64,000 nt of DNA from Anaerolineales bacterium (GTDB lineage: Bacteria; Chloroflexota; Anaerolineae; Anaerolineales; Villigracilaceae): positions 2,260,136-2,324,135 of the forward strand of contig CP129481.1 of assembly GCA_030583905.1 (NCBI GenBank). Direction: 5' to 3'. The number at the start of each line of letters is the position of its first letter. Positions within the stretch are counted from its first letter, which is position 1. The notes under the pieces were generated by a model. That model was given only the letters and a program-made list of their open reading frames with translations, ran no database searches and had not been told where the DNA came from. A program made the position numbers and the translations under genes. This document shows positions 6,549-54,654 of this stretch, piece by piece.

Positions 6549-6599
6549 GGGGTTCCTCCTTGAAGGTTGGTTTCCCTTATTGTAGTGGATTTTTTCGCG

Positions 6600-7229: not shown

Positions 7230-7232
7230 AAC

Positions 7233-10538: not shown

Positions 10539-10560
10539 GTTTACACATCGAACAGAACGG

Positions 10561-10605
10561 AATGGTCTGACCGGTCACATACATGACCGGTCAGACCATT
10601 TTTTT
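10561..10605 (+). terminator. Rho-independent terminator after sodA
   Basis: AATGGTCTGACCGGTCA-loop-TGACCGGTCAGACCATT followed by a T run. Confidence 0.85.
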
Positions 10606-10708
10606 AAACCGCCATCCCTTATGACGTTTTGCACCTTGCCACGTTGATAAAGGACGTTATAATAGAACCGTCGCGTTTGATTAAAACCTCACAAGGAGAA
10701 AAAATCCT

Positions 10709-11122: not shown

Positions 11123-11132
11123 TTCGCCAAAT

Positions 11133-11165
11133 AAAAAGGTCGGGCACATGTGCCCGACCTTTTTT
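11133..11165. terminator. Bidirectional terminator
   Basis: Perfect 32-bp palindrome AAAAAGGTCGGGCACA|TGTGCCCGACCTTTTT between convergent genes. Confidence 0.85.
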
Positions 11166-11173
11166 GATTCCTG

Positions 11174-35691: not shown

Positions 35692-35817
35692 ACCCCCCTC
35701 CGCCTTCGGCACCTCCCCCAACTCCGACGATTCAAACTCTGAATCATTTTGTAAGCGCTTTATTGTCGGATTTGGGGGAGGATGGGTGGGGGCGGGGGAG
35801 GACGGGTGGGGGCGGGG
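35692..35817 (+). repeat. MITE/REP-like element copy
   Basis: Core CCGACGATTCAAACTCTGAATCATTTTGTAAGCGCTT.ATTGTCG.ATTTGGG.GAGGA.GGGTGGGGGCGG nearly identical to 49298-49379. Confidence 0.85.
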
Positions 35818-36843: not shown

Positions 36844-37023
36844 ACGGACATATTTTGTGCCCCCCATATATGGGGGGTGGAATCGGCATTTCTGTACGTT
36901 TCAGGGACCCTCAAAGCCGCTGAGACCTCAACACATGTCAACAGATGTCAACACATCTCAACACATCCCAGCACATCCCAACACGGACAAGGAGACCCCC
37001 ATATATGGGATTTGCATTTTTGT
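36844..37023. repeat. Duplicated CCCCCATATATGGG palindrome flanking a 10-mer tandem array
   Basis: CCCCCCATATATGGGGGG at 36860-36877, second copy at 36996-37009; six (C/G)TCAACACAT-like units at about 36927-36985. Confidence 0.65.
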
Positions 37024-37153
37024 CAGGAGGGGGGTGGGAAGGCGGGACAGAGGGGCGCACACTGGCGCATGGGATGCGTTGCAGGATGGTGGAAATTCAT
37101 TAAAAGACGGGTTTTCACCGTATAATTGCGCCATCTAGATTATGAGGTGGGCT

Positions 37154-39910
37154 TTGCGCCGAATTAGTGAGGATACAACCCGCAAGGAAATGATCGACCC
37201 GCAGTTGGAAAGGGCGGGTTGGTATCTTGCTGACCATTCCAGGGTAAAGACCGAAATCCCTGTGGACGGCTACGATGCCGAGCCGTGGAATGGAATTTCG
37301 GATTACACGCTATACCGCGAAAATGGGGAAGTATTAGCGGTGGTCGAAGCCAAGAAGACATCGGTTGACGTCCGCCTGGCAGAAGCACAACTCACGCATT
37401 ATGTGACTGAAATTGAAAAACACCAGAGTTTCCGTCCGTTCGGCTTTTTAGCCAACGGACTGGAAATCCATTTTGTGGATGTAGGAGTTGCTCCCAAGCG
37501 GGAAGTGTTCGGATTCTTCACGCGCGAAGATTTGGAGAACCTGCTCTACATTCGTCAGAATGCGGTGCCGTTGAGTTCGGTTGAAATCAATAATCAAATT
37601 GTTGACCGTTCCTACCAGCACGAAGCCATCCGCCGCGTGGGCGAAGCCTTCGCCAATGGCAAGCGCAAAGCCCTGATCGTCATGGCGACAGGGACAGGCA
37701 AGACGCGTACCACAATGGGCTTGATAGATGTATTCATGCGGGCGGATCAGGCGAAGAAAATCTTATTCGTAGCGGACCGTGACGCACTCGTGGAACAAGC
37801 CATTGACGATGGTTTCCAAAAATATCTTCCAACGGAACCATGTACACGCTTGCACAGTTGGAAAGTGGAAACCAGCCAGCGCCTGTACGCGGTGACGTTG
37901 CAAACGCTGAGCAATATCTTCGAGCAGTTCTCGCCTGCCTTCTTTGACTTGATCGTCTTCGATGAAGTCCATCGCTCGATCTACAACAAATTCAACGAAG
38001 TGCTGGAGTATTTCGATGCCCGCCAGGTGGGATTGACCGCCACGCCCGCCAATTACATCAACCGCGACACCTTTCTTGCCTTCGATTGCACGGATGGCAA
38101 GCCGACCTATCTTTACACCTACGAACAAGCCATCGAAGACAAGTATCTCGTGGATTATGAACTCTACGCCGCGCGGACCAAGTTCCAGCGGCAGGGCATT
38201 CACGGCGTGGACTTAACCGAAGAGGAACGCAACGCCCTGATCGAAAAGGGACTTGACCCCGACGACATCAATTACGAAGGCACAGAACTGGAAAAGGAAG
38301 TCAGTAACCGCGATACGCTTCGTAAACAGTGGGAAGAGATTTGGGACGTGTGCCGAAAAGATTCGTCGGGACAATTGCCAGGCAAGACCATCGTCTTTGC
38401 GATGACACAAGACCACGCCTTGCGTTTGCAGGATGCGTTTTATGAGATGTATCCGCAATTCCCAGACTTGGCGAAGGTCATCACGCATAAATCGGAATAT
38501 CGCGGCACATTGGTGGAAGCGTTCAAGAAGAAGGATTTCCCGCGCATTGCTATTTCCGTGGACATGCTCGATACGGGCATTGATATTCCCGAAGCCGTCA
38601 ATCTGGTGTTCATGAAGCCTGTGCAATCGCCCATCAAGTTACAGCAGATGATCGGGCGCGGGACGCGCGTGCAGGCGGCGTGCAGAAATCTGGCGTTACT
38701 GCCGAACTTCGAGAAGAAGGATTTTCTCATCATTGACTTCTGGGAGAACAATTTCAGCAGGGATGCCAAGGAAGTCGTTGACCAATCTACGCCTGTGCTG
38801 GTGACGATCTTCAACACACGTTTGAAATTGTTGGAGACCTATCTCAAAGACCAGAAAGACCCCGATTGTAAGCAAGTGATCGCTGACCTGCGCGAGCAGA
38901 TTCAGGGCATCCCAACCGACTCGTTTACCATCCGCAAGCATATGCCAGAGATCGAAGAAGCATGGACAGATGCCTTCTGGGACTATCTCATCCCCAGCAA
39001 GATCGAATTCTTGAAATTGAAAGTCGCCCCGCACCTGCGACTCGTCCCTGGCGTGGACGTTGCTGCGGCGACCTTCATCAGCAAAGTGGAACGGTTGAAA
39101 CTACTCAAACGCACAGGCAGGGAAACCAGTGGAACGATTCAATCCATCGTAGAAGATGCCCAGAGTTTGCGCGATACGATTTTGTCTGACGCGGAAATCA
39201 AAGCCAAGAGCATGTGCGTTCCTGAAAAATTGGTGGAGTTCTCGAACAACGAATTGGACCTGCTTCGAGATGTGCTTTCACCGTGTATGAAGAACAAAAT
39301 ACGGTATGACTCTTTCCTGGAACTCGATCTACTGGATTCCATTGCGGTCAGCGGCTACATTTTGCTCACCAAGAGCGGAGAGAAAATGTACGTGGCGGAA
39401 TATCGCCGTTTGGTGGAAGAGCGCATTTTGCAATTGGTGGCGAACCACCCCACAATAAAGGCAATTCAAAACAGTTATGGTAGGGGCGAAGCATTGCTTC
39501 GCCCTTACATCGACGACTGGCAACTGCTCGAACTCGAACGCACACTGACCAAAGAACTCGGCGAAGGCGACCTGGAAGTGACGCCAGAAAACTTGAAGAA
39601 GGTTTTCGCTCACACCGCCGATAGTTTTCTCGGCTTGGTGCGCCAGGTGCTGGACATGCAGTACCTGCCCGATTACAAGGATTTGGTGGCGCGGCAGTTT
39701 GAAACCTATGTGACCCAACACAACTACAACGCTGACCAGATTCGCTTCTTGCGCGCGGTGCAAAGCGTGTTCTTGCAAAAGCGCCACCTCGAAACTGCCG
39801 ACCTATACGAGCCGCCGTTGGATATGTTTGGCGCGGACGCGGTGGAGCGGTGGTTTACGGAGAAGGAAGTGGAAGAAGTGGTTGAGTTTGCAAATAAGAT
39901 GGCGGTATAG
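37154..39910 (+). CDS. hsdR: Type I restriction endonuclease subunit R (EcoAI/EcoEI-like)
   Basis: Nuclease DY.L...AVVEAKK, MATGTGKT, DEVHRS, GLTATP, VDMLDTG.D, QMIGRGTR, EcoEI_R_C-like tail; TTG start after gaggtg (the track starts at 37142). Confidence 0.93.
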   Translation: MRRISEDTTRKEMIDPQLERAGWYLADHSRVKTEIPVDGYDAEPWNGISDYTLYRENGEVLAVVEAKKTSVDVRLAEAQLTHYVTEIEKHQSFRPFGFLANGLEIHFVDVGVAPKREVFGFFTREDLENLLYIRQNAVPLSSVEINNQIVDRSYQHEAIRRVGEAFANGKRKALIVMATGTGKTRTTMGLIDVFMRADQAKKILFVADRDALVEQAIDDGFQKYLPTEPCTRLHSWKVETSQRLYAVTLQTLSNIFEQFSPAFFDLIVFDEVHRSIYNKFNEVLEYFDARQVGLTATPANYINRDTFLAFDCTDGKPTYLYTYEQAIEDKYLVDYELYAARTKFQRQGIHGVDLTEEERNALIEKGLDPDDINYEGTELEKEVSNRDTLRKQWEEIWDVCRKDSSGQLPGKTIVFAMTQDHALRLQDAFYEMYPQFPDLAKVITHKSEYRGTLVEAFKKKDFPRIAISVDMLDTGIDIPEAVNLVFMKPVQSPIKLQQMIGRGTRVQAACRNLALLPNFEKKDFLIIDFWENNFSRDAKEVVDQSTPVLVTIFNTRLKLLETYLKDQKDPDCKQVIADLREQIQGIPTDSFTIRKHMPEIEEAWTDAFWDYLIPSKIEFLKLKVAPHLRLVPGVDVAAATFISKVERLKLLKRTGRETSGTIQSIVEDAQSLRDTILSDAEIKAKSMCVPEKLVEFSNNELDLLRDVLSPCMKNKIRYDSFLELDLLDSIAVSGYILLTKSGEKMYVAEYRRLVEERILQLVANHPTIKAIQNSYGRGEALLRPYIDDWQLLELERTLTKELGEGDLEVTPENLKKVFAHTADSFLGLVRQVLDMQYLPDYKDLVARQFETYVTQHNYNADQIRFLRAVQSVFLQKRHLETADLYEPPLDMFGADAVERWFTEKEVEEVVEFANKMAV

Positions 39911-39916: not shown

Positions 39917-42871
39917 ATGAAGAAAAAAGCCTTGCCCCTAACCCTTGTTCTCATTGGCGCAGCGTTATTGATAACGACTGTGGTCTTTTGGATTGATTCG
40001 AGCACAACCACCGAGCCGCAGAGTTTCGGGAAAACTTTACTCGACTGGGTAACACTCATTGCTGGGCTTGGGGCAAGTATCAAAGGTTGGATGGATTTAT
40101 TTAAGCCTGATAAACCAAAACCACCGACCACGAAAATTGAAGTGAAAGGCGAAAGATCGCAAGTTTCTACTGGCGATAATTCCCCAAATATTCAAACTGA
40201 GACTTACATCGGCACTCAGATTGTTCAACAACCATCAGAGCCAAAAACGCCAAGGTCTCTAAACCAATTACCTTCGCCACCTTTGGATTTTATTGGACGG
40301 GAAAAAGAATTAGCCCAACTTCGCCAGAACATTGAAAAAGGAGTGGTAATTTCAGGTGTTCAAGGTATGGGCGGAATTGGCAAAACTGCACTTGGTTTGA
40401 AACTCGCTGAACAAATTTCACCCAATTATCCAGATGGGCAAATATATCTTGACTTGCGCGGCGCGCATGAGCAGACACCACTTACACCTGAACAAGTTAT
40501 GGCGCACCTGATTCGGAGTTTTCACCCTGAAACCGCTTTACCGCTTGATTTTGGGGAATTAGGCGCAATGTATCGATCTGTGCTAAGCGGTAAGAAAGCA
40601 TTGCTTTTTTACGATAATGCACGTGACGAAAAACAGTTGGATTCATTGTTGCCCCCCAGAGGGTGTACTTTATTTGTCACTTCACGTCAGTACTTTACCT
40701 TGCCTGGACTTGTGGCAATTGACCTGGAGACTCTAGACTCCAAAGACGCAGTTGAATTGGTACAAGAAATATCGTCAAGAGTTAATAATAAAGACGCTGA
40801 AACGCTTGCGAAACTATGCGGTTACCTGCCGCTGGCGATTCGCGCGGCTGTGAGCGTTTTGCCCAGAAGACCCGATTGGTCTCCCACCGAATTGATAAAA
40901 CGGCTGAGTGATAGCAGGGCAAGATTGGGGCTGGTTGAAAGTTCGCTGAGTTTAAGTTACGACGCCCTTGATTCCGAATTACAAAAATATCTGCGCCAAC
41001 TTGGAGTGTTTGCTGCACCCTTTGACAAAGCAGCAATTCTGGCGGTGTGGTTTGATGAAAGAGATTTGCGCTTGCGACAATTAGGGTTGACATTAAGCTC
41101 ATCATCAGGCACAGATGATGAAATTGTCAATAAAAAATCGCCCGAACGGGAAGCAGATGATATTCTCGGTGAGTTATTAAAGACCAGCCTGTTGAAATAC
41201 GATCAAAACACAAATGAATATTATTTTCATGACCTGACACATATATTTCTTGAGGAAAAGGTTCGGCAAGACGAAAATTCTGATGATGTTTTATGGCGAT
41301 ATGCACAGCACTATTTGAAACTTGCAAGCCAGGCTGATGACGATTATCGAAAAGGCGAAGGACAATATCTTGTTGCTATTGCCCGTTTTCGACAATTGTG
41401 GTTACATGTCAATAAAATATCTGAAAGATTATCAATCGAATCAAATTGGAAAAAGCCAATTTCGGCTGAACGATGGTTGGAAAGATCTGCTTACACAGTT
41501 AGTGAAATGCTCACTATTGGCTTAACGCCAAATAACTATATCTCTTATGTCCAACGGAGTCTTAACGCTTCAAGACGAAACAAAAACCAAGAAGTAGAAA
41601 GTTACAATTTGAATAAACTGGGTCTCGCCTACTCCGCCTTGGGGGATGCGCGCAAAGCGATTGAGTACTACGAGCAGGCGCTTGCCATTGCCCGCGACAT
41701 CGGCGATAGAAAGAGCGAAGGCGGTATTCTTGGCAACGTGGGTCTCGCCTACTCCGCCTTGGGGGATGCGCGCAAAGCGATTGAGTACTACGAGCAGGCG
41801 CTTGCCATTGCCCGCGACATCGGCGATAGAAAAACGGAAGGAATGTTTCTTGGCAACGTGGGTCTCGCCTACTCCGCCTTGGGGGATGCGCGCAAAGCGA
41901 TTGAGTACTACGAGCAGGCGCTTGCCATTGCCCGCGACATCGGCGATAGAAAGAGCGAAGGCGGTATTCTTGGCAACGTGGGTGGAGCCTACTCCGCCTT
42001 GGGGGATGCGCGCAAAGCGATTGAGTACTACGAGCAGGCGCTTGCCATTGCCCGCGACATCGGCGATAGAAAAACGGAAGGAATGTTTCTTGGCAACGTG
42101 GGTCTCGCCTACTCCGCCTTGGGGGATGCGCGCAAAGCGATTGAGTACTACGAGCAGGCGCTTGCCATTGCCCGCGACATCGGCGATAGAAAAACGGAAG
42201 GAATGTTTCTTGGCAACGTGGGTGGAGCCTACTCCGCCTTGGGGGATGCGCGCAAAGCGATTGAGTACTACGAGCAGGCGCTTGCCATTGCCCGCGACAT
42301 CGGCGATAGAAAGAGCGAAGGCGGTATTCTTGGCAACGTGGGTGGAGCCTACTCCGCCTTGGGGGATGCGCGCAAAGCGATTGAGTACTACGAGCAGGCG
42401 CTTGCCATTGCCCGCGACATCGGCGATAGACGAAGTGAGAGTTTTTTTGTCAGTAATTTAGGGGCAATAAATCGAACACTTGGTAATCTTGATATTGCTT
42501 TGGATTTTCTAAAACAAGGTCTGGAGATTTCAAAAGAGGTTGGTGATAGGCACGGGGAAGGTGCAGATTGGGATAATCTTGCCAACGTTTATGCTGATAA
42601 GCAGGATTATGAGAATGCGCTCATTGCCTACAAAAATGCTATGGACATCTCTAGAGAAGTTGGCGATCCATCTCTGGAAGCCAATATCGCCTGGAACGTT
42701 GCTACAATTTACTATGAAAAAGAACAGTATGAAATGGCATGTAAATATATGCAAATCACGGTTGACTTTGAGAATAAGATAAATCATCCAAATGCAAATA
42801 CAGACTTGGAAGCCTTGAATAAGGTACGCGCTAAAATTCAGAATATAACCAAGCCCGAGGAACTGAATTAA
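39917..42871 (+). CDS. NB-ARC/STAND NTPase with N-terminal hydrophobic helices and C-terminal TPR array (NLR-like)
   Basis: FIGREKEL, GMGGIGKT, LLFYDNA, LFVTSR, CGYLPLAI, SL.LSY..L, MHD-like FHDL; 40-aa TPR repeats. Confidence 0.9.
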   Translation: MKKKALPLTLVLIGAALLITTVVFWIDSSTTTEPQSFGKTLLDWVTLIAGLGASIKGWMDLFKPDKPKPPTTKIEVKGERSQVSTGDNSPNIQTETYIGTQIVQQPSEPKTPRSLNQLPSPPLDFIGREKELAQLRQNIEKGVVISGVQGMGGIGKTALGLKLAEQISPNYPDGQIYLDLRGAHEQTPLTPEQVMAHLIRSFHPETALPLDFGELGAMYRSVLSGKKALLFYDNARDEKQLDSLLPPRGCTLFVTSRQYFTLPGLVAIDLETLDSKDAVELVQEISSRVNNKDAETLAKLCGYLPLAIRAAVSVLPRRPDWSPTELIKRLSDSRARLGLVESSLSLSYDALDSELQKYLRQLGVFAAPFDKAAILAVWFDERDLRLRQLGLTLSSSSGTDDEIVNKKSPEREADDILGELLKTSLLKYDQNTNEYYFHDLTHIFLEEKVRQDENSDDVLWRYAQHYLKLASQADDDYRKGEGQYLVAIARFRQLWLHVNKISERLSIESNWKKPISAERWLERSAYTVSEMLTIGLTPNNYISYVQRSLNASRRNKNQEVESYNLNKLGLAYSALGDARKAIEYYEQALAIARDIGDRKSEGGILGNVGLAYSALGDARKAIEYYEQALAIARDIGDRKTEGMFLGNVGLAYSALGDARKAIEYYEQALAIARDIGDRKSEGGILGNVGGAYSALGDARKAIEYYEQALAIARDIGDRKTEGMFLGNVGLAYSALGDARKAIEYYEQALAIARDIGDRKTEGMFLGNVGGAYSALGDARKAIEYYEQALAIARDIGDRKSEGGILGNVGGAYSALGDARKAIEYYEQALAIARDIGDRRSESFFVSNLGAINRTLGNLDIALDFLKQGLEISKEVGDRHGEGADWDNLANVYADKQDYENALIAYKNAMDISREVGDPSLEANIAWNVATIYYEKEQYEMACKYMQITVDFENKINHPNANTDLEALNKVRAKIQNITKPEELN
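41621..42430 (+). repeat. 120-bp tandem repeat x7 encoding TPRs
   Basis: Lines at 41641, 41761, 41881, 42001, 42121, 42241 and 42361 are identical; variation is confined to two sites. Confidence 0.97.
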
Positions 42872-44670
42872 TGCTCACCGACCCTAAACTCCGCAGCCAA
42901 GTAGACGCCCTCTGGGATAAGTTCTGGACGGGTGGATTGACGAACCCGCTCGATGCGATCGAGCAGTTTTCGTATTTGTTGTTCCTCAAGCGGTTGGATG
43001 ACCGCGAGAACGCGGCGGAAAGACAGGCAAAACGCAAGGGGACGACGTATCAGCCCAACGTTAAGAAAGAGATGCGTTGGAGCGTCTGGAAGCAGATGAA
43101 GGCGGAAGAGATGCTCAAGCATCTTAAGTCGGTCGTCTTCCCGCAGTTGGCGAGTCTCACTGATGAAGCATCATCATTTGGTATCTACATGCGCGGGGCG
43201 GAGTGCAAGATCAATAAGCCGAGTCTGCTGGTGGAGGCGGTGAACCTGATCGACCAGATGGAGATCAGCCAGCAAAATCAGGATGTGCAGGGCGACCTGT
43301 TCGAGTACCTGCTGAGTCATTTGAGCATCGCCGGGCGCAATGGACAGTTCCGCACGCCGCGTCACATCATCCGCATGATGGTGCAGATGCTCGACCCCAA
43401 GCCGCGTGAACGCATCGGCGACCTGGCGGCGGGCACGGGCGGATTTTTGATCAACGCGCACCAGTATATTTTGGAGAAGGCGACGTCGAAGAACATCCTT
43501 GAATTCGATGCGGACGGCAGCGCACATCATCTGATCGGCGACCTGCTGAAGGATGACGAGCGCAAGTTCATGAATAGCAAAAAATATCTGCGCGGCTTCG
43601 ACAACGACTCAGGCATGACCATGCTGCGCATCGGCTCGATGAACCTGATGTTGCACGGCATTCAGGAGCCGCAGTTCTTTTACATGGACACGCTCTCCAA
43701 GGGCTATGGGGAGGTGGGCGAGTACGATGTCATTTTGATGAACCCGCCCTTCAAAGGCGCGGTGGACAAAGGCGACGTGCATCCCGACCTGCCCAGCGAT
43801 ACGACCAAGAGCGAGTTGCTCTTTTTGCATTTGATTTTGCGCGCGCTCGATATGGGCGGACGCGCGGCGGTGATCGTGCCCGATGGCGTGCTGTTCGGGT
43901 CGAGCCGCGCCCATGTGGAACTGCGCAAACGCCTCATCGAAGAGAATCGGCTGGACGGCGTGGTCTCGATGCCTTCGGGCGTCTTCAAGCCCTACGCGGG
44001 CGTCAGCACGGCGGTGCTGTTCTTCACGCGCGGCGCACAGACGAAAAACATTTGGTTCTATGACATGGCGCACGATGGTTTTTCGCTGGATGATAAGCGG
44101 ACAAAAGTGGATGAGAACGACATCCCCGATATTTTGGATTGTTGGAAGAAGCGGGGGGATAAGAAGTTCATAGAGAGTAGAGAACAGAGAATCGTGGAGT
44201 TGCGGAAGGAGTTGACTCCGTTGAAGGAAAAGAGATTGAAGTTGCAAGCGGAAGTCAACCGCCTCACGTTCGAACTGGCAATTGCCCCTGTTTCTGACGG
44301 CTCTTCTGCCCCGCAACCTGTCACCGCAGAGACGCGGAGCGACGCAGAGAAAACCAAAGAAAAACTCGGCGCTCTCGGCGTCTCCGCGGTCAATGCTCTT
44401 GCTGATGCGCAAGAACAACTCTCTACTCTCCAATCTCTACTCTCTTCTCCGCAAGGGGAACTCGACCGCCTGACCCGCCAATTCTGGGTGACCAAGGAGC
44501 AGGTCAAGGCGAACAAGTACGATCTCTCTGCCAGCCGTTACCGCCAAGTGGAAGCGGACGCGGCGTATCACGAACAGCCGTCTGTGACGCTGGAACGTTT
44601 GGCGCGGTTGGAGAGTGTGATGTTGGATGAAATTGCGGAATTGAAGAAAACGATGAAGGCTGAAGGATGA
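42871..44670 (+). CDS. hsdM: Type I R-M methyltransferase subunit M
   Basis: GQFRTPRHII, DLAAGTGGF (motif I), NPPF (motif IV), VPDGVLF, FKPYAGVST, YDLS..RY. Confidence 0.95.
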   Translation: MLTDPKLRSQVDALWDKFWTGGLTNPLDAIEQFSYLLFLKRLDDRENAAERQAKRKGTTYQPNVKKEMRWSVWKQMKAEEMLKHLKSVVFPQLASLTDEASSFGIYMRGAECKINKPSLLVEAVNLIDQMEISQQNQDVQGDLFEYLLSHLSIAGRNGQFRTPRHIIRMMVQMLDPKPRERIGDLAAGTGGFLINAHQYILEKATSKNILEFDADGSAHHLIGDLLKDDERKFMNSKKYLRGFDNDSGMTMLRIGSMNLMLHGIQEPQFFYMDTLSKGYGEVGEYDVILMNPPFKGAVDKGDVHPDLPSDTTKSELLFLHLILRALDMGGRAAVIVPDGVLFGSSRAHVELRKRLIEENRLDGVVSMPSGVFKPYAGVSTAVLFFTRGAQTKNIWFYDMAHDGFSLDDKRTKVDENDIPDILDCWKKRGDKKFIESREQRIVELRKELTPLKEKRLKLQAEVNRLTFELAIAPVSDGSSAPQPVTAETRSDAEKTKEKLGALGVSAVNALADAQEQLSTLQSLLSSPQGELDRLTRQFWVTKEQVKANKYDLSASRYRQVEADAAYHEQPSVTLERLARLESVMLDEIAELKKTMKAEG

Positions 44671-45857
44671 ATATGAATCAGCCATTCGTTGAGTTGCAAG
44701 AAGTTTGTCGGTTTATCAGCGGCGGAACGCCAAGCACAAAAGTTCCTGAATATTTCATGGGAACGATTCCTTGGATTACTGGCGCAGATATGAACGGCAA
44801 CGTGATAACTAAAGCGCGACAATACATTACCGAAGAAGCAATTCAGAACTCGGCAACAAATATTGTTCCAAAAGGAAATATCTTGCTTGTCACTCGCACT
44901 GGTGTTGGCAAAGTTGCCATTGCTGGTGTTGATATTTGCATAAGCCAAGATTTTACGGGATTGGAACTCGACAAAACAAAAGTAGATGAATGGTTCTTGC
45001 TCTATTATTTGCGCTCTCAAGAAGAAGCCCTTACTTCTCAACAGCGTGGTGCGACCATTCAAGGAATTACAAGAGATGTAGTTGAAACTCTAAAACTTCC
45101 CCTGCCCCCGCTGACCGAGCAAAAGCGGATTGCGTCCCTACTGGCGCGGGCTGACCGTCTCCGCTCCCTGCGGCGGACAGCGCACGATCTCGGCGAGTCC
45201 CTGCTCCAGTCCGTGTTTTTGGAGATGTTTGGGGATGAACAAAAGCAAAACTATGTAACGATTCAAGAGTTGATGGACTCAGAAGTCATTATTGATATGC
45301 AAGACGGAAATCATGGTGGTGACTATCCAAGAACATCAGAATTTGTTTCTGAAGGCATACCATTTCTAACTGCAACTAATGTAATTGGCAACCGAGTTTT
45401 TCTTGACGCTGCTCCTAGATTGAAACCAGAAAGAGCGCATAAATTACGAATTGGTTGGGTAAAGCCAAATGATGTTTTGCTGTCTCATAACGCTACAGTT
45501 GGACGTGTTGCTATCATGCCATACTTTGAAGGCGAAGTTGTACTTGGCACATCATTAACTTATTACAGATTAAATCCTGAAATTCTTTTACCCCGATATT
45601 TTTCTGGTCTTTTGCAGTCAAGGCATTTTCAATCCCAACTTGAAAGTTTTATGGGGCAAACAACGCGCAATCAAGTTCCAATAACTCGCCAAAGGGAATT
45701 GTTTGTTCCTGTTCCGCCACCGCTGAATCTGCAAGAAGAGTTTGCGGGCATGGTGGCGCGGGTCGAGTCGCTGCGGGGGAGGATGTCCGAGGCGGGGAGG
45801 CAGGTCGAGGGGTTGTTTGAGAGTCTGTTGGCGAAGAGCTTCGGAGGAGGAAGGTAA
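44667..45857 (+). CDS. hsdS: Type I R-M specificity subunit S
   Basis: TRD1 (GGTPST..PEYF.G.IPWI), central PLPPLTEQKRI, TRD2, terminal PPPLNLQEEF...LFESLL. Confidence 0.93.
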   Translation: MNMNQPFVELQEVCRFISGGTPSTKVPEYFMGTIPWITGADMNGNVITKARQYITEEAIQNSATNIVPKGNILLVTRTGVGKVAIAGVDICISQDFTGLELDKTKVDEWFLLYYLRSQEEALTSQQRGATIQGITRDVVETLKLPLPPLTEQKRIASLLARADRLRSLRRTAHDLGESLLQSVFLEMFGDEQKQNYVTIQELMDSEVIIDMQDGNHGGDYPRTSEFVSEGIPFLTATNVIGNRVFLDAAPRLKPERAHKLRIGWVKPNDVLLSHNATVGRVAIMPYFEGEVVLGTSLTYYRLNPEILLPRYFSGLLQSRHFQSQLESFMGQTTRNQVPITRQRELFVPVPPPLNLQEEFAGMVARVESLRGRMSEAGRQVEGLFESLLAKSFGGGR

Positions 45858-49250: not shown

Positions 49251-49590
49251 CCCCCTCCGCCCTGCCTGCGGCGGGCACCTACCCAAAGGGCACGCTGTCC
49301 CCCAAATCCGACGATTCAAACTCTGAATCATTTTGTAAGCGCTTCATTGTCGTATTTGGGAGAGGACGGGTGGGGGCGGTAGGTGAAAATCAAGTGACAG
49401 TCACCTTTGCGAAGCACCCTTTAGGGCACAGGTGACTGTCACTTTTGGTGCAAGGCGGAATTGCGCGGGTATGTGAAGGGCACGGCTTGTGCCACGAAGT
49501 GGTACCTCCGTGCCCTTGGGCGGCAAGACGCCGCCCCTACGTGTGTGTAGGGGCGGATTGGGTGGGGGCGGGCGACAGGACGTCGCCCCT
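49251..49590. repeat. Cluster of REP/MITE-like elements
   Basis: Copy of the 35692 element (49251-49379); AAGTGACAGTCACC..GGTGACTGTCACTT (49392-49444); AGGGCACGG..CCGTGCCCT; GTAGGGGCG..CGCCCCTAC. Confidence 0.75.
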
Positions 49591-49978
49591 ACTTATTGTT
49601 ATACAAAGCTCCGGCGATCACGGCAAAGACCAATACCGCCAGCCCGGTCACTTGTTCGGGGAAGGCATAGCCGAGGATCGTGCCGCCCATTGCCATTGCC
49701 CAGAGCGGGTAGGCAAGCAGGGTCAGGATCACGTTGAGCGTTTTGCCTTCGCCTTCGGTGCCCTGCCAGCGCAGGAACAACGCCAGCGCCCAGCAGATGA
49801 CCGCCCAGGTCCCTTCAAAGGTCGGCGCGAGGGACTTGCCGAGCACATAGATGCTGATGACCTCGCCCGGCACGTGCGCGGCGACTTTCCCCAGAAAATC
49901 TTGAAACTGCTCGAGGGCGGTCCGGGCTTTGGGTCTCACCTGCCCCATGCCGCCGATGGTCTTGTATAGCGTTGCCAT
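49589..49978 (-). CDS. Hypothetical membrane protein
   Basis: 129 aa, four hydrophobic segments, RBS aaaggag. Confidence 0.7.
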   Translation of the reverse strand: MATLYKTIGGMGQVRPKARTALEQFQDFLGKVAAHVPGEVISIYVLGKSLAPTFEGTWAVICWALALFLRWQGTEGEGKTLNVILTLLAYPLWAMAMGGTILGYAFPEQVTGLAVLVFAVIAGALYNNK

Positions 49979-50070
49979 TCTTTCTCCTTTTGTGTGTGAT
50001 TCGAACTTGCATTGACACCTTAGATTATAAGGATTTCAACGCGGAATTCAAACCCGGCGGTGCTCCAGGG

Positions 50071-50949
50071 TCACCTGCCGAACATCTCGCGGATGAGCGG
50101 GCGGATCGCCTCCCAGTTCGGCGCGAGCACCTGCGCACCCTGCGAGGTCTGGAATGGGATGACCATCTCGCGCGTAATACTGCGGTTGTCCAAGCCGGTG
50201 AGCAGGGCGCGCAGCATGGCAAACCCGAGGCGCGGGTACTGCCAGGCGGGCAGGTTGGTCTCGACCGCGCGGAAGAGCGGCGGCAGGATTTCGGGCAGTT
50301 TGCTCCACGAGGCGGGCTGGATGATCTTCTTGATCACGGCGGTCAGCAGGACTTGCGTGCCAGCCATGCGCCCGAAGTCGTCGCCCATGCTCCTGTCGCG
50401 GGCAAAGGCAAGTGCCTGGAGTCCGTTCAGATGGTGGGTGCCAGCCGGAAGTCCGCCCTGAGGCGCCGCCAGTTCGACATCCACTCCGCCCAGCGCATCC
50501 ACAAGGAAGATGAGTTCGGTCATGCGGATCAGCGCATAGTAGCGGACGGGCACGTTGAAGTTCTGGCGGATGGTTTCAAGCGCCGCCTCGGACCCCGCCC
50601 CGGGCTGGTCTGCTTCGGCGAAGAAATACGCCGTGTTGATTCTTTGTTCGCCCACGCCGGGAATCGGCACCCACAGGTCGCGCGGGATGGAAAGCATGCC
50701 GACGTACGGCTGGAGCGGGACGATGGTGGTCAGGATGATCGTATCGGTGCGCCCGGTGCCCCCGCGCTCGGGGGAGGCATCTGTGCCGAGCAGGAGGATA
50801 TTGGTGCGCAGGGGCGCGAGGAAGTAGGCAGCAATGAACAGGGATGCGAATACCAGCCAGTTCCATCGTTTGGGGCGTTTTTGTCGCGGCACGGCGCGCA
50901 CTGCCTGCATGCGGCTCATGCGGTCGGTGGGTCGGGTGTCTTCGAGCAT
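50071..50949 (-). CDS. LCP (LytR-CpsA-Psr) family protein
   Basis: NILLLGTD, RTDTIIL, SIPRDLWV, RINTAY, VDALGGV, ALAFARDR..DDFGR. Confidence 0.92.
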   Translation of the reverse strand: MLEDTRPTDRMSRMQAVRAVPRQKRPKRWNWLVFASLFIAAYFLAPLRTNILLLGTDASPERGGTGRTDTIILTTIVPLQPYVGMLSIPRDLWVPIPGVGEQRINTAYFFAEADQPGAGSEAALETIRQNFNVPVRYYALIRMTELIFLVDALGGVDVELAAPQGGLPAGTHHLNGLQALAFARDRSMGDDFGRMAGTQVLLTAVIKKIIQPASWSKLPEILPPLFRAVETNLPAWQYPRLGFAMLRALLTGLDNRSITREMVIPFQTSQGAQVLAPNWEAIRPLIREMFGR

Positions 50950-51045
50950 GGGAAAAATTGTACAGAGGCAGTATGAAGCGATGATGAGAGATAATCTTCA
51001 TGCCAAAAGAAAGAATTAACCGTATAATGTGGGTATTCCATTCAC

Positions 51046-51378
51046 GAGGTGGGCTGTTGCGCCGAATTAGTGAGGATACAATCCGCAAGCGGATGATCGA
51101 CCCGCAGTTGGAAAGGACGGGTTGGTATTTGCGCGACTTCTCAAATGGGGAAATTATTGGGTGGTAATTTTATGATTACATTGTTCAGTACGATAACCCT
51201 TGTTAGTTTCGCTTCCTGTGCGCCGTGCCAAGTATGTTCTTGCAGAAGCGCCATCTCGAGACCACCGACTTATACGAACCGCTCTTGGACATGTTTGGCA
51301 CGGATGCAGCGGCGCGGTGTTTTACGGAGAAGGGGTGTAAGAAATGGTGGAGTTTGCTAACCGATTGGCGATTCAATA
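51046..51378 (+). pseudogene. hsdR: Internally deleted hsdR remnant (5' about 90 bp joined to 3' about 200 bp)
   Basis: 51046-51130 matches 37144-37225 (GCGCCGAATTAGTGAGGATACA...ATGATCGACCCGCAGTTGGAAAGG); 51207-51370 matches 39743-39905 with frameshifts. Confidence 0.88.
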
Positions 51379-51429
51379 ATTTTGAGCCATTACACCGATT
51401 CGATTGCCACGAGATGAAAAGGAGACAAA

Positions 51430-53043
51430 ATGAATGGCAAAATTAGCTTCATTCCAAATGCAGATTTGGGCAGATATCTTCAATCCCTTGACTCTGTGCG
51501 ATTCCTTGAATCAAATGAGATTGCTTGTAATGTCCAAGCAAAATTAGAAATTTTTACGTCTTTGATGTTAGGTAGAACTATCCCTGTCGGTGAGCACCAG
51601 TTCATTGATTCGTACGGGCTTCTGTCGAATGCGTATCACATGATTAAAGCCTTAGATAAGTTGCCAAAAACAGATCGCTCCCAAATTGAACATATATTTC
51701 CTTTTCAACTTTATTTCCGAGGCGAATATAAGACCATAGATGGTTTGATTGCCGCAAAACTGGGCGACCCTAATTACAAACTTTCTTTGTGGCGTTATTT
51801 AAGCAAACCTGATGACCAAAAAATGCTAGATAATCGCCAAAAGATAAAGGCAAAAGTGGAAGATGGTACTTTTAAGTACGAGGATGACGATCTCGTGCCA
51901 AACAAAGATTATGATGCAGCAAAAATGCTTCACAAAGTTCGAAATCACTTCTTTCACGGCGAAAGAGAGCAAATCTACACACTCTACGGTTCTAAGACAA
52001 TTGGGATTGCACCTTACATTGGGCTTCTTGAAGCAGGAATTTCGAGGATTAGTAATCTGACTAGAAAGGATTTGAACAGTCAGATTAAACATCAAGCAAA
52101 GCTAATGGATAAGGGAATAATTGCCACAGAGATACTCGATCCTAAGTTAAAAGAAATAGCCGTTGAACTAATCATGATTCTGAGGCAACTAAAGAAACTT
52201 GGATTGATGACGGGAAATCGCTCTAATATCCGAATCGGTAATGCGAGAATTAGGTCACGGGGGAAAGAAAAAATTCAAAAGTTCAGAGAGATTGTAAACA
52301 ATGATCTAATGTATGACGCCATACTTGAAATTTTTGATTTGCTTTACAATAGTTCAATTGCTAAATCGTGTTTTGCACATAGCGAAAGTGTTTCATCAGC
52401 TCGGAGTATTACTGATAATCATTATGTCCAAGCGGCAATAGCACTTTCTACAATGGCAAAAAACGAGATTACCGATCAGGCAGACTTGAAAGGGAATTAC
52501 TTTAACCCGCCCTGGATACAAGATTTTACGTTCAACCTAAACGTGCCTTCCGAGGCAAAACTTATGCTTGATTCTATGCCATGGGAGCGTGTTTGGGAGG
52601 CGTTTTTGGATACAAAATGGCGAGATACTGTTTCTAATTTAAACGGTATTCTCTTGAAATGGGACAAATTTATCAATGACCCAACTACATCTGAACAAGA
52701 ATATATGGATGTGACCTACGAGTTGGATTATGCTTACGATGCACATATAGACAATATAAGCAGGATTCTTAAAGAGTCAGGGTGGAATTTTGTTAAAAAC
52801 CAGAAAACCAACCAAACCATAATTAAGTTTTTACCTTGGGTAGGTGGGTTAGCTACTAAGGCAGTAGCAAAGATTGCTCTTGATCGCGTTGGCATAGATC
52901 CATTTTGGGAGGAAACAATACCAGATTCAATTGGTACCGCAACGGGAATTGGCATAAATAAAACTATCGAACCTGTTGGCAAATGGATAACTAAAGGTTA
53001 CATTAGAAAGACATTTGCCCGCTTGGTTTTGCCAGAAAAATAA
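51430..53043 (+). CDS. Hypothetical 537-aa protein
   Basis: Long AT-rich ORF with RBS aaggag; no family recognised. Confidence 0.85.
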   Translation: MNGKISFIPNADLGRYLQSLDSVRFLESNEIACNVQAKLEIFTSLMLGRTIPVGEHQFIDSYGLLSNAYHMIKALDKLPKTDRSQIEHIFPFQLYFRGEYKTIDGLIAAKLGDPNYKLSLWRYLSKPDDQKMLDNRQKIKAKVEDGTFKYEDDDLVPNKDYDAAKMLHKVRNHFFHGEREQIYTLYGSKTIGIAPYIGLLEAGISRISNLTRKDLNSQIKHQAKLMDKGIIATEILDPKLKEIAVELIMILRQLKKLGLMTGNRSNIRIGNARIRSRGKEKIQKFREIVNNDLMYDAILEIFDLLYNSSIAKSCFAHSESVSSARSITDNHYVQAAIALSTMAKNEITDQADLKGNYFNPPWIQDFTFNLNVPSEAKLMLDSMPWERVWEAFLDTKWRDTVSNLNGILLKWDKFINDPTTSEQEYMDVTYELDYAYDAHIDNISRILKESGWNFVKNQKTNQTIIKFLPWVGGLATKAVAKIALDRVGIDPFWEETIPDSIGTATGIGINKTIEPVGKWITKGYIRKTFARLVLPEK

Positions 53044-53079
53044 GAATTTTTCAATACAAATACGGAAGAAGGATATGTC

Positions 53080-53757
53080 ATGAATTACTATGAGCTGCTT
53101 AGCAAATTCCCAAATCTTATCGGCGATAATGATGCCTTAATAAAGATCGTGCAAGAACCTGATGCTATCAAGGACTGGCAAGAACAGCGCCAAAAAGAAC
53201 TTGCCAGTAAAAACCTTCCGCAAAATTGGGCTGATATTGGTGTCGTATTTCATGATCCGTATTTTTTCGTTGTCCGTGACTTGGTTCAATTTCCTAATGG
53301 ACGTTTGAATGGTTATTGTCGTGTTCTAAGTGAAGCTAATCTGAGCGGAGGGCATGGGGCGGTTGTTTTGCCTGAATACGAAGGTAAAGTAATGTTGTTA
53401 CACCAGTATCGCCATCCAACGCGTAAATGGCACTATGAAGTTCCGCGTGGATATGGCGAATTGAACACTCCTGCTGAAGAAAATGCCCGAAAGGAAGTTG
53501 AAGAAGAAACAGGTGGAACAATTGAAAAGCTTGTGAATTTAGGGGAGTTCTATAATAATACTGGTTTTGAGGGTGGAGCGGTTTCGTTGTTTTATGCCAA
53601 GTTGTCATCCATAGGCCAGCCAAACGAAGATGAAGGCATTGAGTCCTTCGTCTGGCTCACTGTCAAAGAACTCGAAGAATGGATAGCCAACGAGAAGATC
53701 ACCGATGGCTTTACCATTGCCGCGTACACCAAAGCCAAACTCAAAGGATTGATCTAG
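53080..53757 (+). CDS. NUDIX hydrolase (ADP-ribose pyrophosphatase-like) with N-terminal extension
   Basis: HQYRHP..KW.YEVPRG, NUDIX box GYGE...AEENARKEVEEETG, I.DGFTIAA. Confidence 0.9.
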   Translation: MNYYELLSKFPNLIGDNDALIKIVQEPDAIKDWQEQRQKELASKNLPQNWADIGVVFHDPYFFVVRDLVQFPNGRLNGYCRVLSEANLSGGHGAVVLPEYEGKVMLLHQYRHPTRKWHYEVPRGYGELNTPAEENARKEVEEETGGTIEKLVNLGEFYNNTGFEGGAVSLFYAKLSSIGQPNEDEGIESFVWLTVKELEEWIANEKITDGFTIAAYTKAKLKGLI

Positions 53758-53909
53758 GAGGGATTCTTGCTATGAGCGGAATAGATAAGTTCTATGGTTA
53801 ATTAAGGAAGAAATCTATTCGGTTTCGTTTTCCCAATGGCAATAAGACTCCGAATCCGCTGCCCCAGAACTACCGCCATGTGAAAGCCGTCCGCGGACTG
53901 CTGAATTTT

Positions 53910-54354
53910 ATGCCCAGGGGACACCACATTGCAAGTATTGGCTTCAAAATCAGTGAGGAGGCCTTTGTGGTTCTGTCCAACCTTGAAAATGACCTGAAGT
54001 GGCGAAACGAATGGGTTGATACCCGGAAAACTTCAGAGGGTCCGATTGGACCTAGCACCTGTTTCGGTCTGGTTGCCAAAGCGTTTGGACGGCAGGCTCG
54101 AGACGGTCTACGAGACGATCCAATGCGAACCAAATCGGATTGTGGCGTGGAAAGCCATGTCGGGACCGCTTCCGCTGACATTCCGGAGGACCGTCGAGCG
54201 CGTCGAAGGCGGTACCCGCCTGACCATCAGATACGAAGTGGAACCGCGTAGCTTCCTAAAGCTGCTTATGCCGCTCATCGCTGGCTCGGTCACGCGACAA
54301 CATACAGGTGACCTGCGTAAGGTGAAGGAACTGCTGGAAACCCGCGCGTTGTGA
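53910..54354 (+). pseudogene. Frameshifted SRPBCC (polyketide cyclase-like) gene
   Basis: N-half EEAF..LSNLEND.KWR.EW..T.KTSEGPIG in one frame; C-half RLETVYE...EPNR.VAWK..SGPLP in the next; shift near 54090. Confidence 0.7.
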
Positions 54355-54455
54355 GCATGTTCTGAACATGTCAACAAACACCCGATCACGGGGTTATCTT
54401 GTCATAGCAGATATTTCCGACTACACATCGCTCGTTGCCAAGACAGATCTCAAAA

Positions 54456-54570
54456 ATGAGCGAAACTCAGATAACCCGAAGAAAACCCGAACAGGCCGCG
54501 AAACTCTTGCGCAAAGCCGATGAAGAAATGACAAGGGGCAAATCGGTGGAAGATTCCTACCCGGGAAAAG
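54456..54570 (+). mobile_element. Possible IS3-family OrfA N-terminal fragment
   Basis: RRKPEQ.AKLLRKAD....GKSVE resembles IS3 OrfA starts; short and degenerate. Confidence 0.4.
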
Positions 54571-54654
54571 CCACAACCTGCCTTGCAACCGGCAAAACCA
54601 AAGTCCCGCCTCAAAGCGGGACTTTGGTTTCTTGATAATGGAACTATCTTTTCC

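What the first reader, a model, noticed from the sequence alone, without database searches (positions are those of the whole stretch)
51019..51378. Second, hollowed-out hsdR: only the two ends and the -10 box remain
Seen: ACCGTATAAT and the first ~90 bp of hsdR are repeated (37117/37144 versus 51019/51046) and joined to a decayed copy of the last ~200 bp; about 2.5 kb of the middle is absent. As at the intact locus, a foreign AT-rich gene follows the hsdR end. Inference: conserved R-M gene ends act as landing pads here too, and the scar may supply the promoter for the passenger pair. The direct repeats bracket about 14 kb that could be deleted or amplified.
Basis: partly seen in the sequence, partly recalled or inferred. 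Interest (0 to 1): 0.62.

Follow-up and report, generated by a model that had tools for sequence, protein, structure and literature searches.

The report
Gutted restriction gene still heading defence cargo
This is the dead shell of a second restriction-enzyme gene (hsdR): its start and its last ~80 codons survive, in front of two foreign defence-type genes that outlived it, and related bacteria show similar shells often enough to suggest that these gene ends serve as docking and expression points for swappable immune genes.

Summary
Window 51046-51132 matches the intact hsdR 5' end (92% nt) and 51205-51360 matches its 3' end (81.5%). ACCGTATAAT lies at the same distance upstream in both copies.

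The relic reads as HsdR residues 5-31 joined in frame to residues 841-922 at a 'YL.D' microhomology. It was later broken by three stop codons and a 1-nt deletion. It is not a recent copy of the intact gene:
- A same-genus genome has a full hsdR at this exact LytR-adjacent site.
- The two closest homologues of the 537-aa passenger sit behind open hsdR tails.

The slot behind hsdR differs in all twelve same-genus loci examined. Five further genomes carry hollow hsdR genes. Extra hsdR tails and hsdM heads bracket cargo, and four genomes have hsdM-hsdS hollowed in the same way.

The most likely reading is a decayed type I operon whose embedded cargo (537-aa protein plus NUDIX) survived.

Embedding of defence genes in type I loci is already known. 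The recurrent end-preserving scaffold may be a new variant of that pattern. I found no evidence for deletion or amplification of the 14-kb interval.

The parts
51000..51028 (+). Promoter-like site of the dead hsdR (ATGCCA-17 nt-TATAAT). The conserved ACCGTATAAT box is at 51019-51028.
   Evidence: Best sigma-70-type match in 50800-54700, 10 of 12. The (C)CGTATAAT box stands at a fixed distance from the SD in the G000 intact copy, the relic, G020, G001 and G041, although the surrounding upstream DNA has diverged. Function is not tested.
51046..51143 (+). hsdR head stub: SD GAGGTGGG (51046-51053), TTG start (51057), codons for HsdR aa 5-33.
   Evidence: 92% nt to 37144-37230. tblastn gives 83% over aa 5-33. 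Alignment with relatives shows the same SD and TTG start.
51126..51204 (+). Deletion junction and the most decayed part of the tail. The head (..GWYL) runs in frame into tail residues from about aa 841 (YLPD..) at an imperfect 12-nt microhomology. In-frame stops TAA 51165-51167 and TAG 51204-51206.
   Evidence: Both tblastn pieces lie in the same frame and overlap at 'YLRDFS'. Nucleotide comparison: TATTTGCGCGAC against TACCTGCCCGAT.
51205..51378 (+). hsdR tail remnant (about aa 866-922) ending at the native stop TAA 51376-51378. It carries a 1-nt deletion near 51333 and a resulting stop at 51338-51340.
   Evidence: 81.5% nt to 39738-39894. Global alignment runs to the end of the gene. The tail ends '..AIQ*' like the tails that precede NUDIX-type cargo in G023 and G059.
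51379..51429 (+). 51-nt spacer with the passenger's RBS AGGAG (51420-51424). It has no credible promoter or terminator of its own.
   Evidence: the only other + strand match, at 51404-51431, overlaps the ATG. The spacer is homologous to the one behind an open hsdR tail in metagenome contig L039.
51430..53043 (+). Passenger 1: 537-aa protein of unknown family, GC 0.38-0.40.
   Evidence: No Pfam or PADLOC hit. Rare family, 18 clusters in 5.8 billion proteins. A NUDIX gene of about 225 aa follows it directly wherever an intact copy's downstream gene could be read. Found in only 1 of 81 genus genomes.
53080..53757 (+). Passenger 2: 225-aa NUDIX hydrolase.
   Evidence: PF00293. 65% identical to NUDIX genes in the cargo of G023 (embedded between hsdR and hsdM) and of G021 (not hsd-linked).
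50071..50949 (-). LytR_cpsA_psr core gene, divergent from the relic and sharing its 107-nt upstream region.
   Evidence: PF03816. 70% aa to the G020 orthologue, which sits next to a full-length hsdR.
37117..39910 (+). Reference copy: intact hsdR with its ACCGTATAAT box (37117-37126). The real start is probably TTG at 37154.
   Evidence: ResIII, Helicase_C, HSDR_N and EcoEI_R_C domains. PADLOC type I REase.
39917..45857 (+). Rest of the intact operon: NB-ARC/TPR cargo (39917-42871), hsdM (42871-44670), hsdS (44667-45857).
49298..49379 (+). 82-nt hairpin repeat, twin of 35714-35795 (94%). The pair brackets the 13.6-kb block that holds the intact locus.
   Evidence: third copy at 84% elsewhere in the genome. 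No Rfam family.

Best explanation
Window 51019-51378 is the relic of a second type I restriction subunit gene (hsdR). That gene once headed an operon of the form hsdR - embedded cargo - hsdM - hsdS, at the position where a same-genus genome (G020) still has a full hsdR next to LytR.

An illegitimate recombination at a short 'YL.D' microhomology removed codons ~32-840 in frame. The frame then decayed (three stops, one 1-nt deletion), and hsdM/hsdS were lost without trace.

What survives is exactly what borders other genes:
- the promoter/SD/start region, shared with the divergent LytR gene;
- the last ~80 codons, which abut the cargo.

The cargo is a horizontally acquired, low-GC pair (537-aa protein plus NUDIX hydrolase) of defence-island type. 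It remains intact and is most likely transcribed from the retained hsdR promoter.

Shown: the anatomy, the orthology of the site, the ancestral linkage of this cargo to an open hsdR tail, and the recurrence of such shells in the genus.

Inferred: the order of events, promoter use, and the idea that the conserved hsd gene ends serve as homology arms for cargo exchange.
For: - **Anatomy.** Head and tail are in one frame and joined at a microhomology, with later stops.
- **Site orthology.** G020 aligns contiguously across LytR and the intergenic region into the start of a full hsdR (72% nt; LytR 70% aa, HsdR at least 751 aa).
- **Not a fresh copy.** The tail is only about 80% identical to every other tail, including the one in the same genome. 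The head's 'TTGCGCGAC' matches relatives rather than the intact copy.
- **Cargo was behind a working hsdR.** The 87% and 71% homologues of the 537-aa protein are preceded by open hsdR tails (93-94% aa) and, in L039, by the same spacer. G062 has hsdR-NUDIX-617 aa (a distant homologue of the 537-aa protein)-333 aa-NUDIX-hsdM-hsdS, tightly packed.
- **Recurrence.** Hollow hsdR genes occur in G096, G041, G052, G059 and G064. Extra tails stand ahead of cargo in G075, G059, G071 and G080. hsdM head stubs follow cargo in G005, G041, G064, G075 and G096. hsdM-hsdS is hollowed to 'M head + S tail' in G041, G064, G096 and G052.
- **Promoter.** The box is conserved, it gives the best match in the region, and nothing intervenes before the cargo start.
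- **Mobility of hsdR.** HsdR is 85-94% aa identical between species whose core proteins are 66-72% identical.
Against:
- Promoter consensus rules for Chloroflexota are uncertain, and the intact copy lacks a recognisable -35 element.
- The 5' stub could be kept only because it overlaps the LytR control region.
- No hsdM or hsdS relic is detectable downstream, so the former presence of those genes here rests on relatives.
- An in-situ deletion cannot be told apart from replacement of the gene body by an incoming 'tail + cargo' fragment.
- The in-frame bias is not significant: 3 of 4 independent hollowing events are in frame, p about 0.11.
Confidence: 0.78

Rival explanations
1. The tail and cargo arrived together as one unit. 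A donor fragment 'hsdR tail - 537-aa gene - NUDIX' recombined into a resident hsdR: a homologous or microhomologous join near the head, and an illegitimate join downstream. This replaced the gene body and hsdM/hsdS in a single step, so there was no simple internal deletion.
For: - The last ~60-100 nt of tails and the following spacer co-vary with cargo type.
- Tails are stacked ahead of successive cargos in G059, G071, G075 and G080.
- In G064 the hsdR 'hole' is filled with two genes.
- The same 66|847 junction occurs in G096 and G041 with different heads, different cargo and different chromosomal neighbours.
- The tail block at aa ~800-895 is the best-conserved stretch of hsdR at nucleotide level, 90-92%.
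Against: - The junction lies at a plausible intragenic microhomology and is in frame, which a plain deletion explains most simply.
- The positional orthologue in G020 is full length.
- Nothing in the window marks a right-hand join.
Confidence: 0.22
2. The 5' stub is retained only because it overlaps the promoter or operator region of the divergent core gene LytR. The passenger pair is expressed from its own promoter in the tail or spacer.
For: - The LytR start codon (50949) is about 70 nt from the -10 box.
- The pair exists elsewhere with its own upstream region and no hsdR (L017; L040 and L043).
Against: - No promoter-like site at 9 of 12 or better on the + strand between 51029 and 51403. The one at 51404-51431 overlaps the ATG.
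- None in the intact tail either.
- This idea does not explain why the tail is kept here and in other genomes where the upstream gene is co-oriented (FADox in G041).
Confidence: 0.2
3. The relic is a recent intragenomic duplicate of the two ends of the intact hsdR, made by recombination within this genome and kept similar by gene conversion.
For: The head is slightly closer to the same-genome intact copy (90%) than to G041 (87%) or G020 (84%) over 83 nt. An 82-nt repeat also pairs the two loci.
Against: - The tail is only 80% identical to the intact tail and equally distant from all relatives.
- The upstream regions are unrelated apart from the 10-mer.
- The site is orthologous to the G020 hsdR.
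- The head comparison rests on about 5 nucleotide differences.
Confidence: 0.05
4. The relic encodes a functional small protein or leader peptide: a mini-HsdR, or the 55-aa ORF at 51000-51167.
For: Equivalent head-tail fusions in G096 (171 aa), G041 (131 aa) and G052 (444 aa) have open frames.
Against: In this window the homologous frame is cut by TAA 51165, TAG 51204, a 1-nt deletion and TAA 51338. The tail is at 53-56% aa identity, as expected for neutral decay.
Confidence: 0.03

Closest known systems
Defence genes genetically embedded in type I R-M, BREX, DISARM and Hma operons ('guilt-by-embedding', Payne et al. 2024, bioRxiv 10.1101/2024.01.29.577857). The classic case is PrrC inside the EcoprrI hsd locus.
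   Same: Foreign defence-type genes sit between hsdR and hsdM on the same strand, packed as one operon. This holds at the intact locus here and in every relative examined.
   Different: That study required intact host systems and excluded pseudogenes, and its text does not mention recombination. Here the host system is dead and only its gene ends remain around the cargo. The ends themselves (hsdR tails, hsdM heads) are duplicated and mosaic.
Ordinary decay of R-M operons and defence islands, including cassette-like variation of the enterobacterial immigration control region (Sibley and Raleigh 2004, from my own knowledge).
   Same: Turnover at a fixed chromosomal slot between conserved genes, with pseudogenes and fragments of restriction genes left behind.
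   Different: In the immigration control region the conserved flanks are housekeeping genes. Here the conserved flanks are the ends of the restriction genes themselves, and they are kept even when the rest of each gene is gone.
Integron cassette arrays and CALINs (attC clusters lacking an integrase).
   Same: Rows of promoterless or compact cargo genes behind a fixed upstream promoter, each preceded by a short repeated sequence.
   Different: There is no attC-type structured site and no integrase gene within or beside the loci examined. The repeats are coding-gene ends with scattered, not fixed, breakpoints (aa 790-881), which points to homologous plus illegitimate recombination.
Homology-facilitated illegitimate recombination (de Vries and Wackernagel 2002, from my own knowledge).
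   Same: One conserved anchor (the hsdR tail block, 90-92% nt between species) plus a microhomology join would produce exactly the observed truncated tails: a variable 5' edge and the native 3' end.
   Different: This mechanism has never been shown in Anaerolineales, and no competence or transfer route was examined here.

Membership tests
Functional type I restriction subunit HsdR | N-terminal PD-(D/E)xK nuclease domain (HSDR_N) | tested here: not met
   Only aa 5-33 remain. The intact protein's HSDR_N match lies at aa 52-114, which falls inside the deleted part.
Functional type I restriction subunit HsdR | SF2 helicase/translocase motor (ResIII/DEAD plus Helicase_C) | tested here: not met
   The motor spans aa 154-510 in the intact copy. 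It is absent from the relic.
Functional type I restriction subunit HsdR | Uninterrupted reading frame | tested here: not met
   TAA 51165-67, TAG 51204-06, a 1-nt deletion near 51333 and TAA 51338-40.
Functional type I restriction subunit HsdR | Partner hsdM and hsdS genes in the same locus | tested here: not met
   No HsdM or HsdS similarity in 53700-54700, even at E up to 50.
hsdR pseudogene derived from the EcoEI_R_C-type hsdR lineage of this genus | Significant, collinear similarity to both ends of hsdR, with the native start signals and the native stop | tested here: met
   E 2e-27 and 5e-36. SD, TTG start and stop are all aligned with orthologues.
hsdR pseudogene derived from the EcoEI_R_C-type hsdR lineage of this genus | A full-length gene at the orthologous position in a relative | tested here: met
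   G020: FADox - LytR(-) - hsdR (at least 751 aa, up to the contig end), aligned contiguously across the junction.
Embedded cargo of a type I R-M operon (Payne et al. 2024 sense) | Cargo lies between genes of one R-M system on the same strand | tested here: inconclusive
   This is true of the intact locus and of homologous cargo in G062, G023 and G052. At the relic only the hsdR shell remains on one side.
Embedded cargo of a type I R-M operon (Payne et al. 2024 sense) | Cargo belongs to defence-associated families or neighbourhoods | tested here: inconclusive
   The pair is conserved and sits beside AbiEii, TIR, PIN/MazE and HsdR-like genes elsewhere. There is no PADLOC model hit beyond a marginal PDC-S07 match, and no functional test.
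Sigma-70-type promoter driving the cargo | -35 and -10 hexamers with 16-18 nt spacing, conserved in orthologues | tested here: inconclusive
   The relic scores 10 of 12. The -10 box is conserved in five head sequences. The intact copy has no -35 match.
Sigma-70-type promoter driving the cargo | Transcripts that start just downstream and read into the cargo | not testable with these tools
Integron / CALIN | attC recombination sites and (for integrons) an intI integrase | tested here: not met
   The repeats around cargo are hsd gene ends. No integrase or recombinase domain was found among the ORFs flanking the loci that were scanned. attC models were not run.

The most novel reading that the evidence does not exclude
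The ends of the hsd genes may form a recombinase-free cassette platform. The elements are the hsdR head with its promoter, the hsdR tail, the hsdM head and the hsdS tail.

These 100-300-nt blocks stay 85-92% identical between species whose core genes are only ~70% identical at protein level. They could therefore act as portable homology arms through which defence cargo is swapped, stacked and moved between species.

The platform survives as a hollow scaffold after restriction itself is lost, and it goes on supplying the promoter for the cargo. The relic in this window would be one such scaffold in late decay.
Probability: 0.35. Interest if true: 0.75.

Novelty: new variant of a known kind. Interest (0 to 1): 0.52.

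Why it matters
Embedding of immune genes inside restriction operons is used as a discovery principle, but how the cargo gets in, moves and outlasts its host operon has not been described.

This locus and its relatives give a concrete, testable picture. The conserved ends of hsdR, hsdM and hsdS are what persists and what is duplicated around cargo. That is the pattern expected if these ends act both as recombination arms and as expression signals.

There are two practical consequences:
- Annotation pipelines that demand intact host systems will miss cargo behind such shells. Short hsdR-tail or hsdM-head relics could be used as beacons for unannotated defence genes.
- The relic flags the pair of a 537-aa protein and a NUDIX hydrolase, and a wider 'NUDIX-X-NUDIX' cargo type, as candidates for functional testing.

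Tried and rejected
- **Transcript and read evidence.** There was therefore no RNA start mapping and no check for deletion or amplification joints across the 14-kb repeats.
- **First tblastn over relatives' loci.** It returned nothing because I assumed one file per locus. It was redone correctly.
- **hsdM/hsdS relics downstream of the NUDIX gene.** None found.
- **An hsdM head hidden between DUF3800 and the second tail in G075.** None seen by eye. A simple circular-intermediate (Campbell) model is therefore not supported there.
- **Rfam families for the 82-nt repeat and the whole 33-58 kb stretch.** Only chance-level hits. Its fold is not convincingly better than shuffled sequence in one of the two copies.
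- **Homology between SH3_350 and the 363-aa ORF after the G001 locus.** None.
- **Homology between the G023 529-aa cargo protein and the 537-aa passenger.** None by BLASTP.
- **Gene conversion between the two heads.** The 90% vs 84-87% difference rests on about 5 nt, so I make no claim.
- **In-frame bias of hollowing deletions.** 3 of 4 independent events, not significant.
- **Literature.** Searches for a described hsdR-end cassette mechanism found only the embedding paper.
- **Not attempted.** Structure prediction of the 537-aa protein, which is the subject of another finding of this scan.

Full report
**1. The observation**

- Window 51046-51132 matches 37144-37230, the start of the intact hsdR, at 92% over 88 nt (E 2e-27).
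- Window 51205-51360 matches 39738-39894, the end of the same gene, at 81.5% over 157 nt (E 5e-36).
- These are the only copies in the 4.13-Mb genome.
- ACCGTATAAT lies at 37117-37126 and 51019-51028. In both copies it is 17 nt before a GAGGTGGG Shine-Dalgarno sequence and 27-28 nt before a TTG that alignment with relatives identifies as the real start.
- About 72 nt in the relic replace about 2.5 kb of the intact gene.
- Both hsdR ends are followed by low-GC genes: 0.38-0.47 against 0.60-0.68 in the flanks.

**2. Anatomy of the relic**

Translation shows one original frame: LRRISEDTIRKRMIDPQLERTGWYL, which is HsdR aa 5-31, runs straight into RDFSNGEIIGW*FYDYIVQYDNPC*FRFLCAVPSMFLQKRHLETTDLYEPLLDMFGTDAAARCFTEKG, which is aa 841-908. 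The numbering follows the 922-aa ORF. After a 1-nt deletion it continues as V*EMVEFANRLAIQ* up to the native stop at 51376-51378.

The join lies at 'YL.D', which occurs in both the head (YLADHS) and the tail (YLPDYK). At nucleotide level this is TATTTGCGCGAC against TACCTGCCCGAT.

The event was therefore an in-frame loss of codons ~32-840, probably by microhomology-mediated illegitimate recombination. Neutral decay followed: TAA 51165-67, TAG 51204-06, a deletion near 51333 and TAA 51338-40. No nuclease or motor domain is left, so this is a pseudogene.

**3. Surroundings**

The intact locus comprises:
- hsdR (37154-39910);
- an NB-ARC/TPR STAND gene (39917-42871);
- hsdM (42871-44670);
- hsdS (44667-45857);
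- a half-hsdS/TIR fusion, a 291-aa gene and hsdS tail fragments.

The relic lies divergent to the core gene LytR_cpsA_psr (50071-50949, minus strand). It is followed after 51 nt (RBS AGGAG at 51420-24) by a 537-aa protein with no Pfam or PADLOC hit, and then by a 225-aa NUDIX hydrolase. ABC-2 permease genes follow on the other strand. No hsdM or hsdS relic is detectable in between.

**4. The relic is a decayed orthologue, not a fresh copy**

- A same-genus genome (G020) has FADox - LytR(-) - hsdR. Its nucleotide alignment runs contiguously across LytR and the intergenic region into the hsdR start (72%). Its hsdR is open for at least 751 codons, up to the contig end.
- The relic's tail is about 74-80% identical to the tails of all full-length copies, including the one 11 kb upstream.
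- The relic's head carries 'TTGCGCGAC' like the relatives, not 'CTTGCTGAC' like the intact copy.

**5. The cargo once sat behind a working hsdR**

The 537-aa family is rare: 18 clusters in 5.8 billion proteins. It occurs in 1 of 81 genus genomes.

A NUDIX gene of about 225 aa follows it directly wherever an intact copy's downstream gene could be read.
- Its two closest homologues (87% and 71% aa, contigs L039 and L042) are each preceded by an open hsdR tail that is 93-94% identical to the intact HsdR. In L039 the spacer is also the same.
- More distant homologues (60% and 51%) are not hsd-linked. One of them lies among AbiEii and helicase genes.

G062 shows what the live operon probably looked like: hsdR - NUDIX232 - 617 aa (a distant homologue of the 537-aa protein) - 333 aa - NUDIX231 - hsdM - hsdS, tightly packed. 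Related 'NUDIX-X-NUDIX' cargos occur in G023 and G052 and on a JGI contig. In G021 a related cassette (PycTM-378/166 aa-epimerase-NUDIX) that keeps only the distal NUDIX lies away from hsd genes.

**6. The slot behind hsdR is hypervariable**

| Genome | Cargo between hsdR and hsdM |
|---|---|
| G000 | NB-ARC/TPR |
| G064 | NB-ARC/TPR |
| G024 | NACHT 597 aa + 894 aa |
| G001 | KAP-AAA-HEPN, 800 aa |
| G005 | 399 aa + hsdM head stub + CBS 285 aa |
| G058 | 790 aa |
| G023 | NUDIX-PycTM-529 aa-epimerase-NUDIX-IS200 transposase |
| G075 | DUF3800 + tail + 558 aa |
| G096 | TIR 517 aa |
| G041 | HAD-312 aa-radical SAM |
| G052 | DUF3800-NUDIX-449 aa-NUDIX |

Sources.

HsdR itself is 85-94% identical among species whose FADox and LytR proteins are 66-72% identical. 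The hsd genes therefore move or recombine between species.

**7. Hollow scaffolds recur**

Hollow hsdR genes in the 81-genome search:

| Genome | Retained parts (aa) | State |
|---|---|---|
| G096 | 1-66 \| 847-922 | open ORF |
| G041 | 1-66 \| 847-922, same junction as G096 | open ORF |
| G052 | 6-367 \| 842-922 | open ORF |
| G059 | 6-40 \| 873-922 | out of frame |
| G064 | 6-70, then two genes, then 863-922 | body replaced by two genes |

G096 and G041 share the junction but differ in head type, cargo and chromosomal neighbours.

Additional tails stand ahead of successive cargos:
- G075: hsdR - DUF3800 - tail 881-922 - 558 aa.
- G059: hollow hsdR - MazE/PIN - tail 837-922 - NUDIX.
- G071 and G080: paired tails starting at aa 790.

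hsdM head stubs follow cargo in G005, G041, G064, G075 and G096. In G041, G064, G096 and G052 the hsdM-hsdS pair is reduced to 'M head + S tail'.

Tail 5' edges fall at eight or more different positions, but all within aa 790-881 of 922, whereas their 3' ends are the native stop. This region coincides with the best-conserved nucleotide block of hsdR (90-92% between species). It is followed by a last 100 nt that is only 70% conserved and that co-varies, together with the downstream spacer, with the cargo type. The relic's '..AIQ*' ending belongs to the tail variant that precedes NUDIX-type cargo in G023 and G059.

**8. How it most likely works**

Shown:
- the relic is a dead hsdR at an ancestral hsdR site;
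- its cargo was formerly embedded behind a live hsdR;
- across the genus the parts of hsd genes that abut cargo are retained and duplicated, while their interiors are lost.

Inferred:
- (a) The cargo is now transcribed from the hsdR promoter.
  - Support: the -10 box is an island of conservation in diverged upstream DNA.
  - Support: ATGCCA-17-TATAAT is the best match in 3.9 kb.
  - Support: no usable promoter or terminator lies between it and the cargo start.
- (b) The conserved tail and head blocks act as homology arms for cargo exchange. Illegitimate joins would create the truncated extra copies.
- (c) Deletions that spare the promoter and the cargo are the ones that persist.

A rival reason for keeping the 5' stub is its overlap with the LytR control region.

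**9. The '14-kb bracket'**

Three direct-repeat pairs flank 13.6-13.9 kb: an 82-nt hairpin element at 94%, the heads at 92% and the tails at 81.5%. The longest perfect runs are only 38 nt and 25 nt. A metagenome contig from another sample reproduces window 49427-53903 exactly. Other assemblies simply break at the repeats. I found no evidence for deletion or amplification, and the question remains open.

**10. Comparison with what is known, and verdict**

Embedding of defence genes in type I R-M operons is established (Payne et al. 2024; PrrC). That work filtered out pseudogenised hosts and does not address mechanism. Literature searches found no description of hsd gene ends as repeated cassette borders.

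Earlier notes of this scan report the same idea for hsdS tails in this genome, and cargo-sparing decay in other genomes. I treated these as leads. My own independently show the hsdS tail arrays.

The relic itself is an ordinary pseudogene. The recurrent, end-preserving scaffold around cargo is a new variant of a known pattern and is moderately interesting.

Noticed in passing
window 35714-35795 and 49298-49379; third copy at genome C1:2386457-2386537: An 82-nt element with an 18-bp terminal inverted repeat, 94% identical between the two window copies. The pair brackets the 13.6-kb block that holds SH3-gene - hsdR - NB-ARC/TPR - hsdM - hsdS - cassettes. No Rfam family. Its role (integration scar, MITE-like element or terminator) is unresolved.
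   Followed up: partly
window 36927-37043: A run of 10-nt periodic repeats (CTCAACACATG-type, 36927-36984) just upstream of the intact hsdR. The ~95-nt stretch 36950-37043 recurs at four other places in the genome at 87-93% identity, so it is a dispersed short repeat.
   Followed up: no
L024 (G041) 9957-10156; L026 (G064) 4912-5106; L023 (G096) 5458-5854; L025 (G052) 11478-12617: In four same-genus genomes with a hollow hsdR, the hsdM-hsdS pair is hollowed as well: the hsdM head (aa 1-25, 1-54, 1-56 or 1-333) abuts the hsdS tail (from aa ~348-354 to 392-394). Only the gene ends that border cargo slots remain.
   Followed up: partly
L023 (G096) 8962-9477 and L024 (G041) 6341-6736: Two species carry a mini-hsdR with the same 66|847 junction and open frames (171 and 131 aa). 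They differ in head/promoter type, downstream cargo (TIR protein versus HAD-312 aa-radical SAM) and upstream neighbour (CO-dehydrogenase flavoprotein-like gene versus FADox). Either the hollow scaffold moved as a unit or its parts recombined afterwards.
   Followed up: partly
L029 (G062) 4339-8574; L012 (G023) 5985-10525; L025 (G052) 8559-11473; JGI contig with P0005: A recurrent 'NUDIX - variable middle gene(s) - NUDIX' cargo. The middle is a 617-aa distant homologue of the 537-aa passenger plus a 333-aa gene, or PycTM + 529 aa + epimerase, or a 449-aa gene. It looks like a family of multi-gene candidate defence systems built around two different NUDIX hydrolases.
   Followed up: partly
window 37154-39910 compared with relatives: HsdR is 85-94% aa identical (81-88% nt) between species whose neighbouring core proteins FADox and LytR are 66-72% identical. 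This implies recent exchange or homogenisation of the hsd genes within the genus.
   Followed up: partly
window 45861-46976: A 371-aa protein that joins a single HsdS-type target-recognition domain to a TIR domain, 3 nt after hsdS (PADLOC Specificity_I plus TIR hits).
   Followed up: no
window 54016-54354: A 112-aa ORF that matches only the C-terminal part of an SRPBCC/Polyketide_cyc2 domain (E 2e-4), in the ~900-nt gap between the NUDIX gene and the ABC-2 permease genes. It is possibly a truncated gene that marks the right edge of the lost hsdM/hsdS region.
   Followed up: no
L028 (G059) 869-1461 and L031 (G071) 734-1326: The same MazE-PIN toxin-antitoxin pair (71 + 125 aa) lies between two hsdR tail copies in two species. 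A MazE-PIN-NUDIX row also precedes a truncated homologue of the 537-aa passenger on metagenome contig L020.
   Followed up: no
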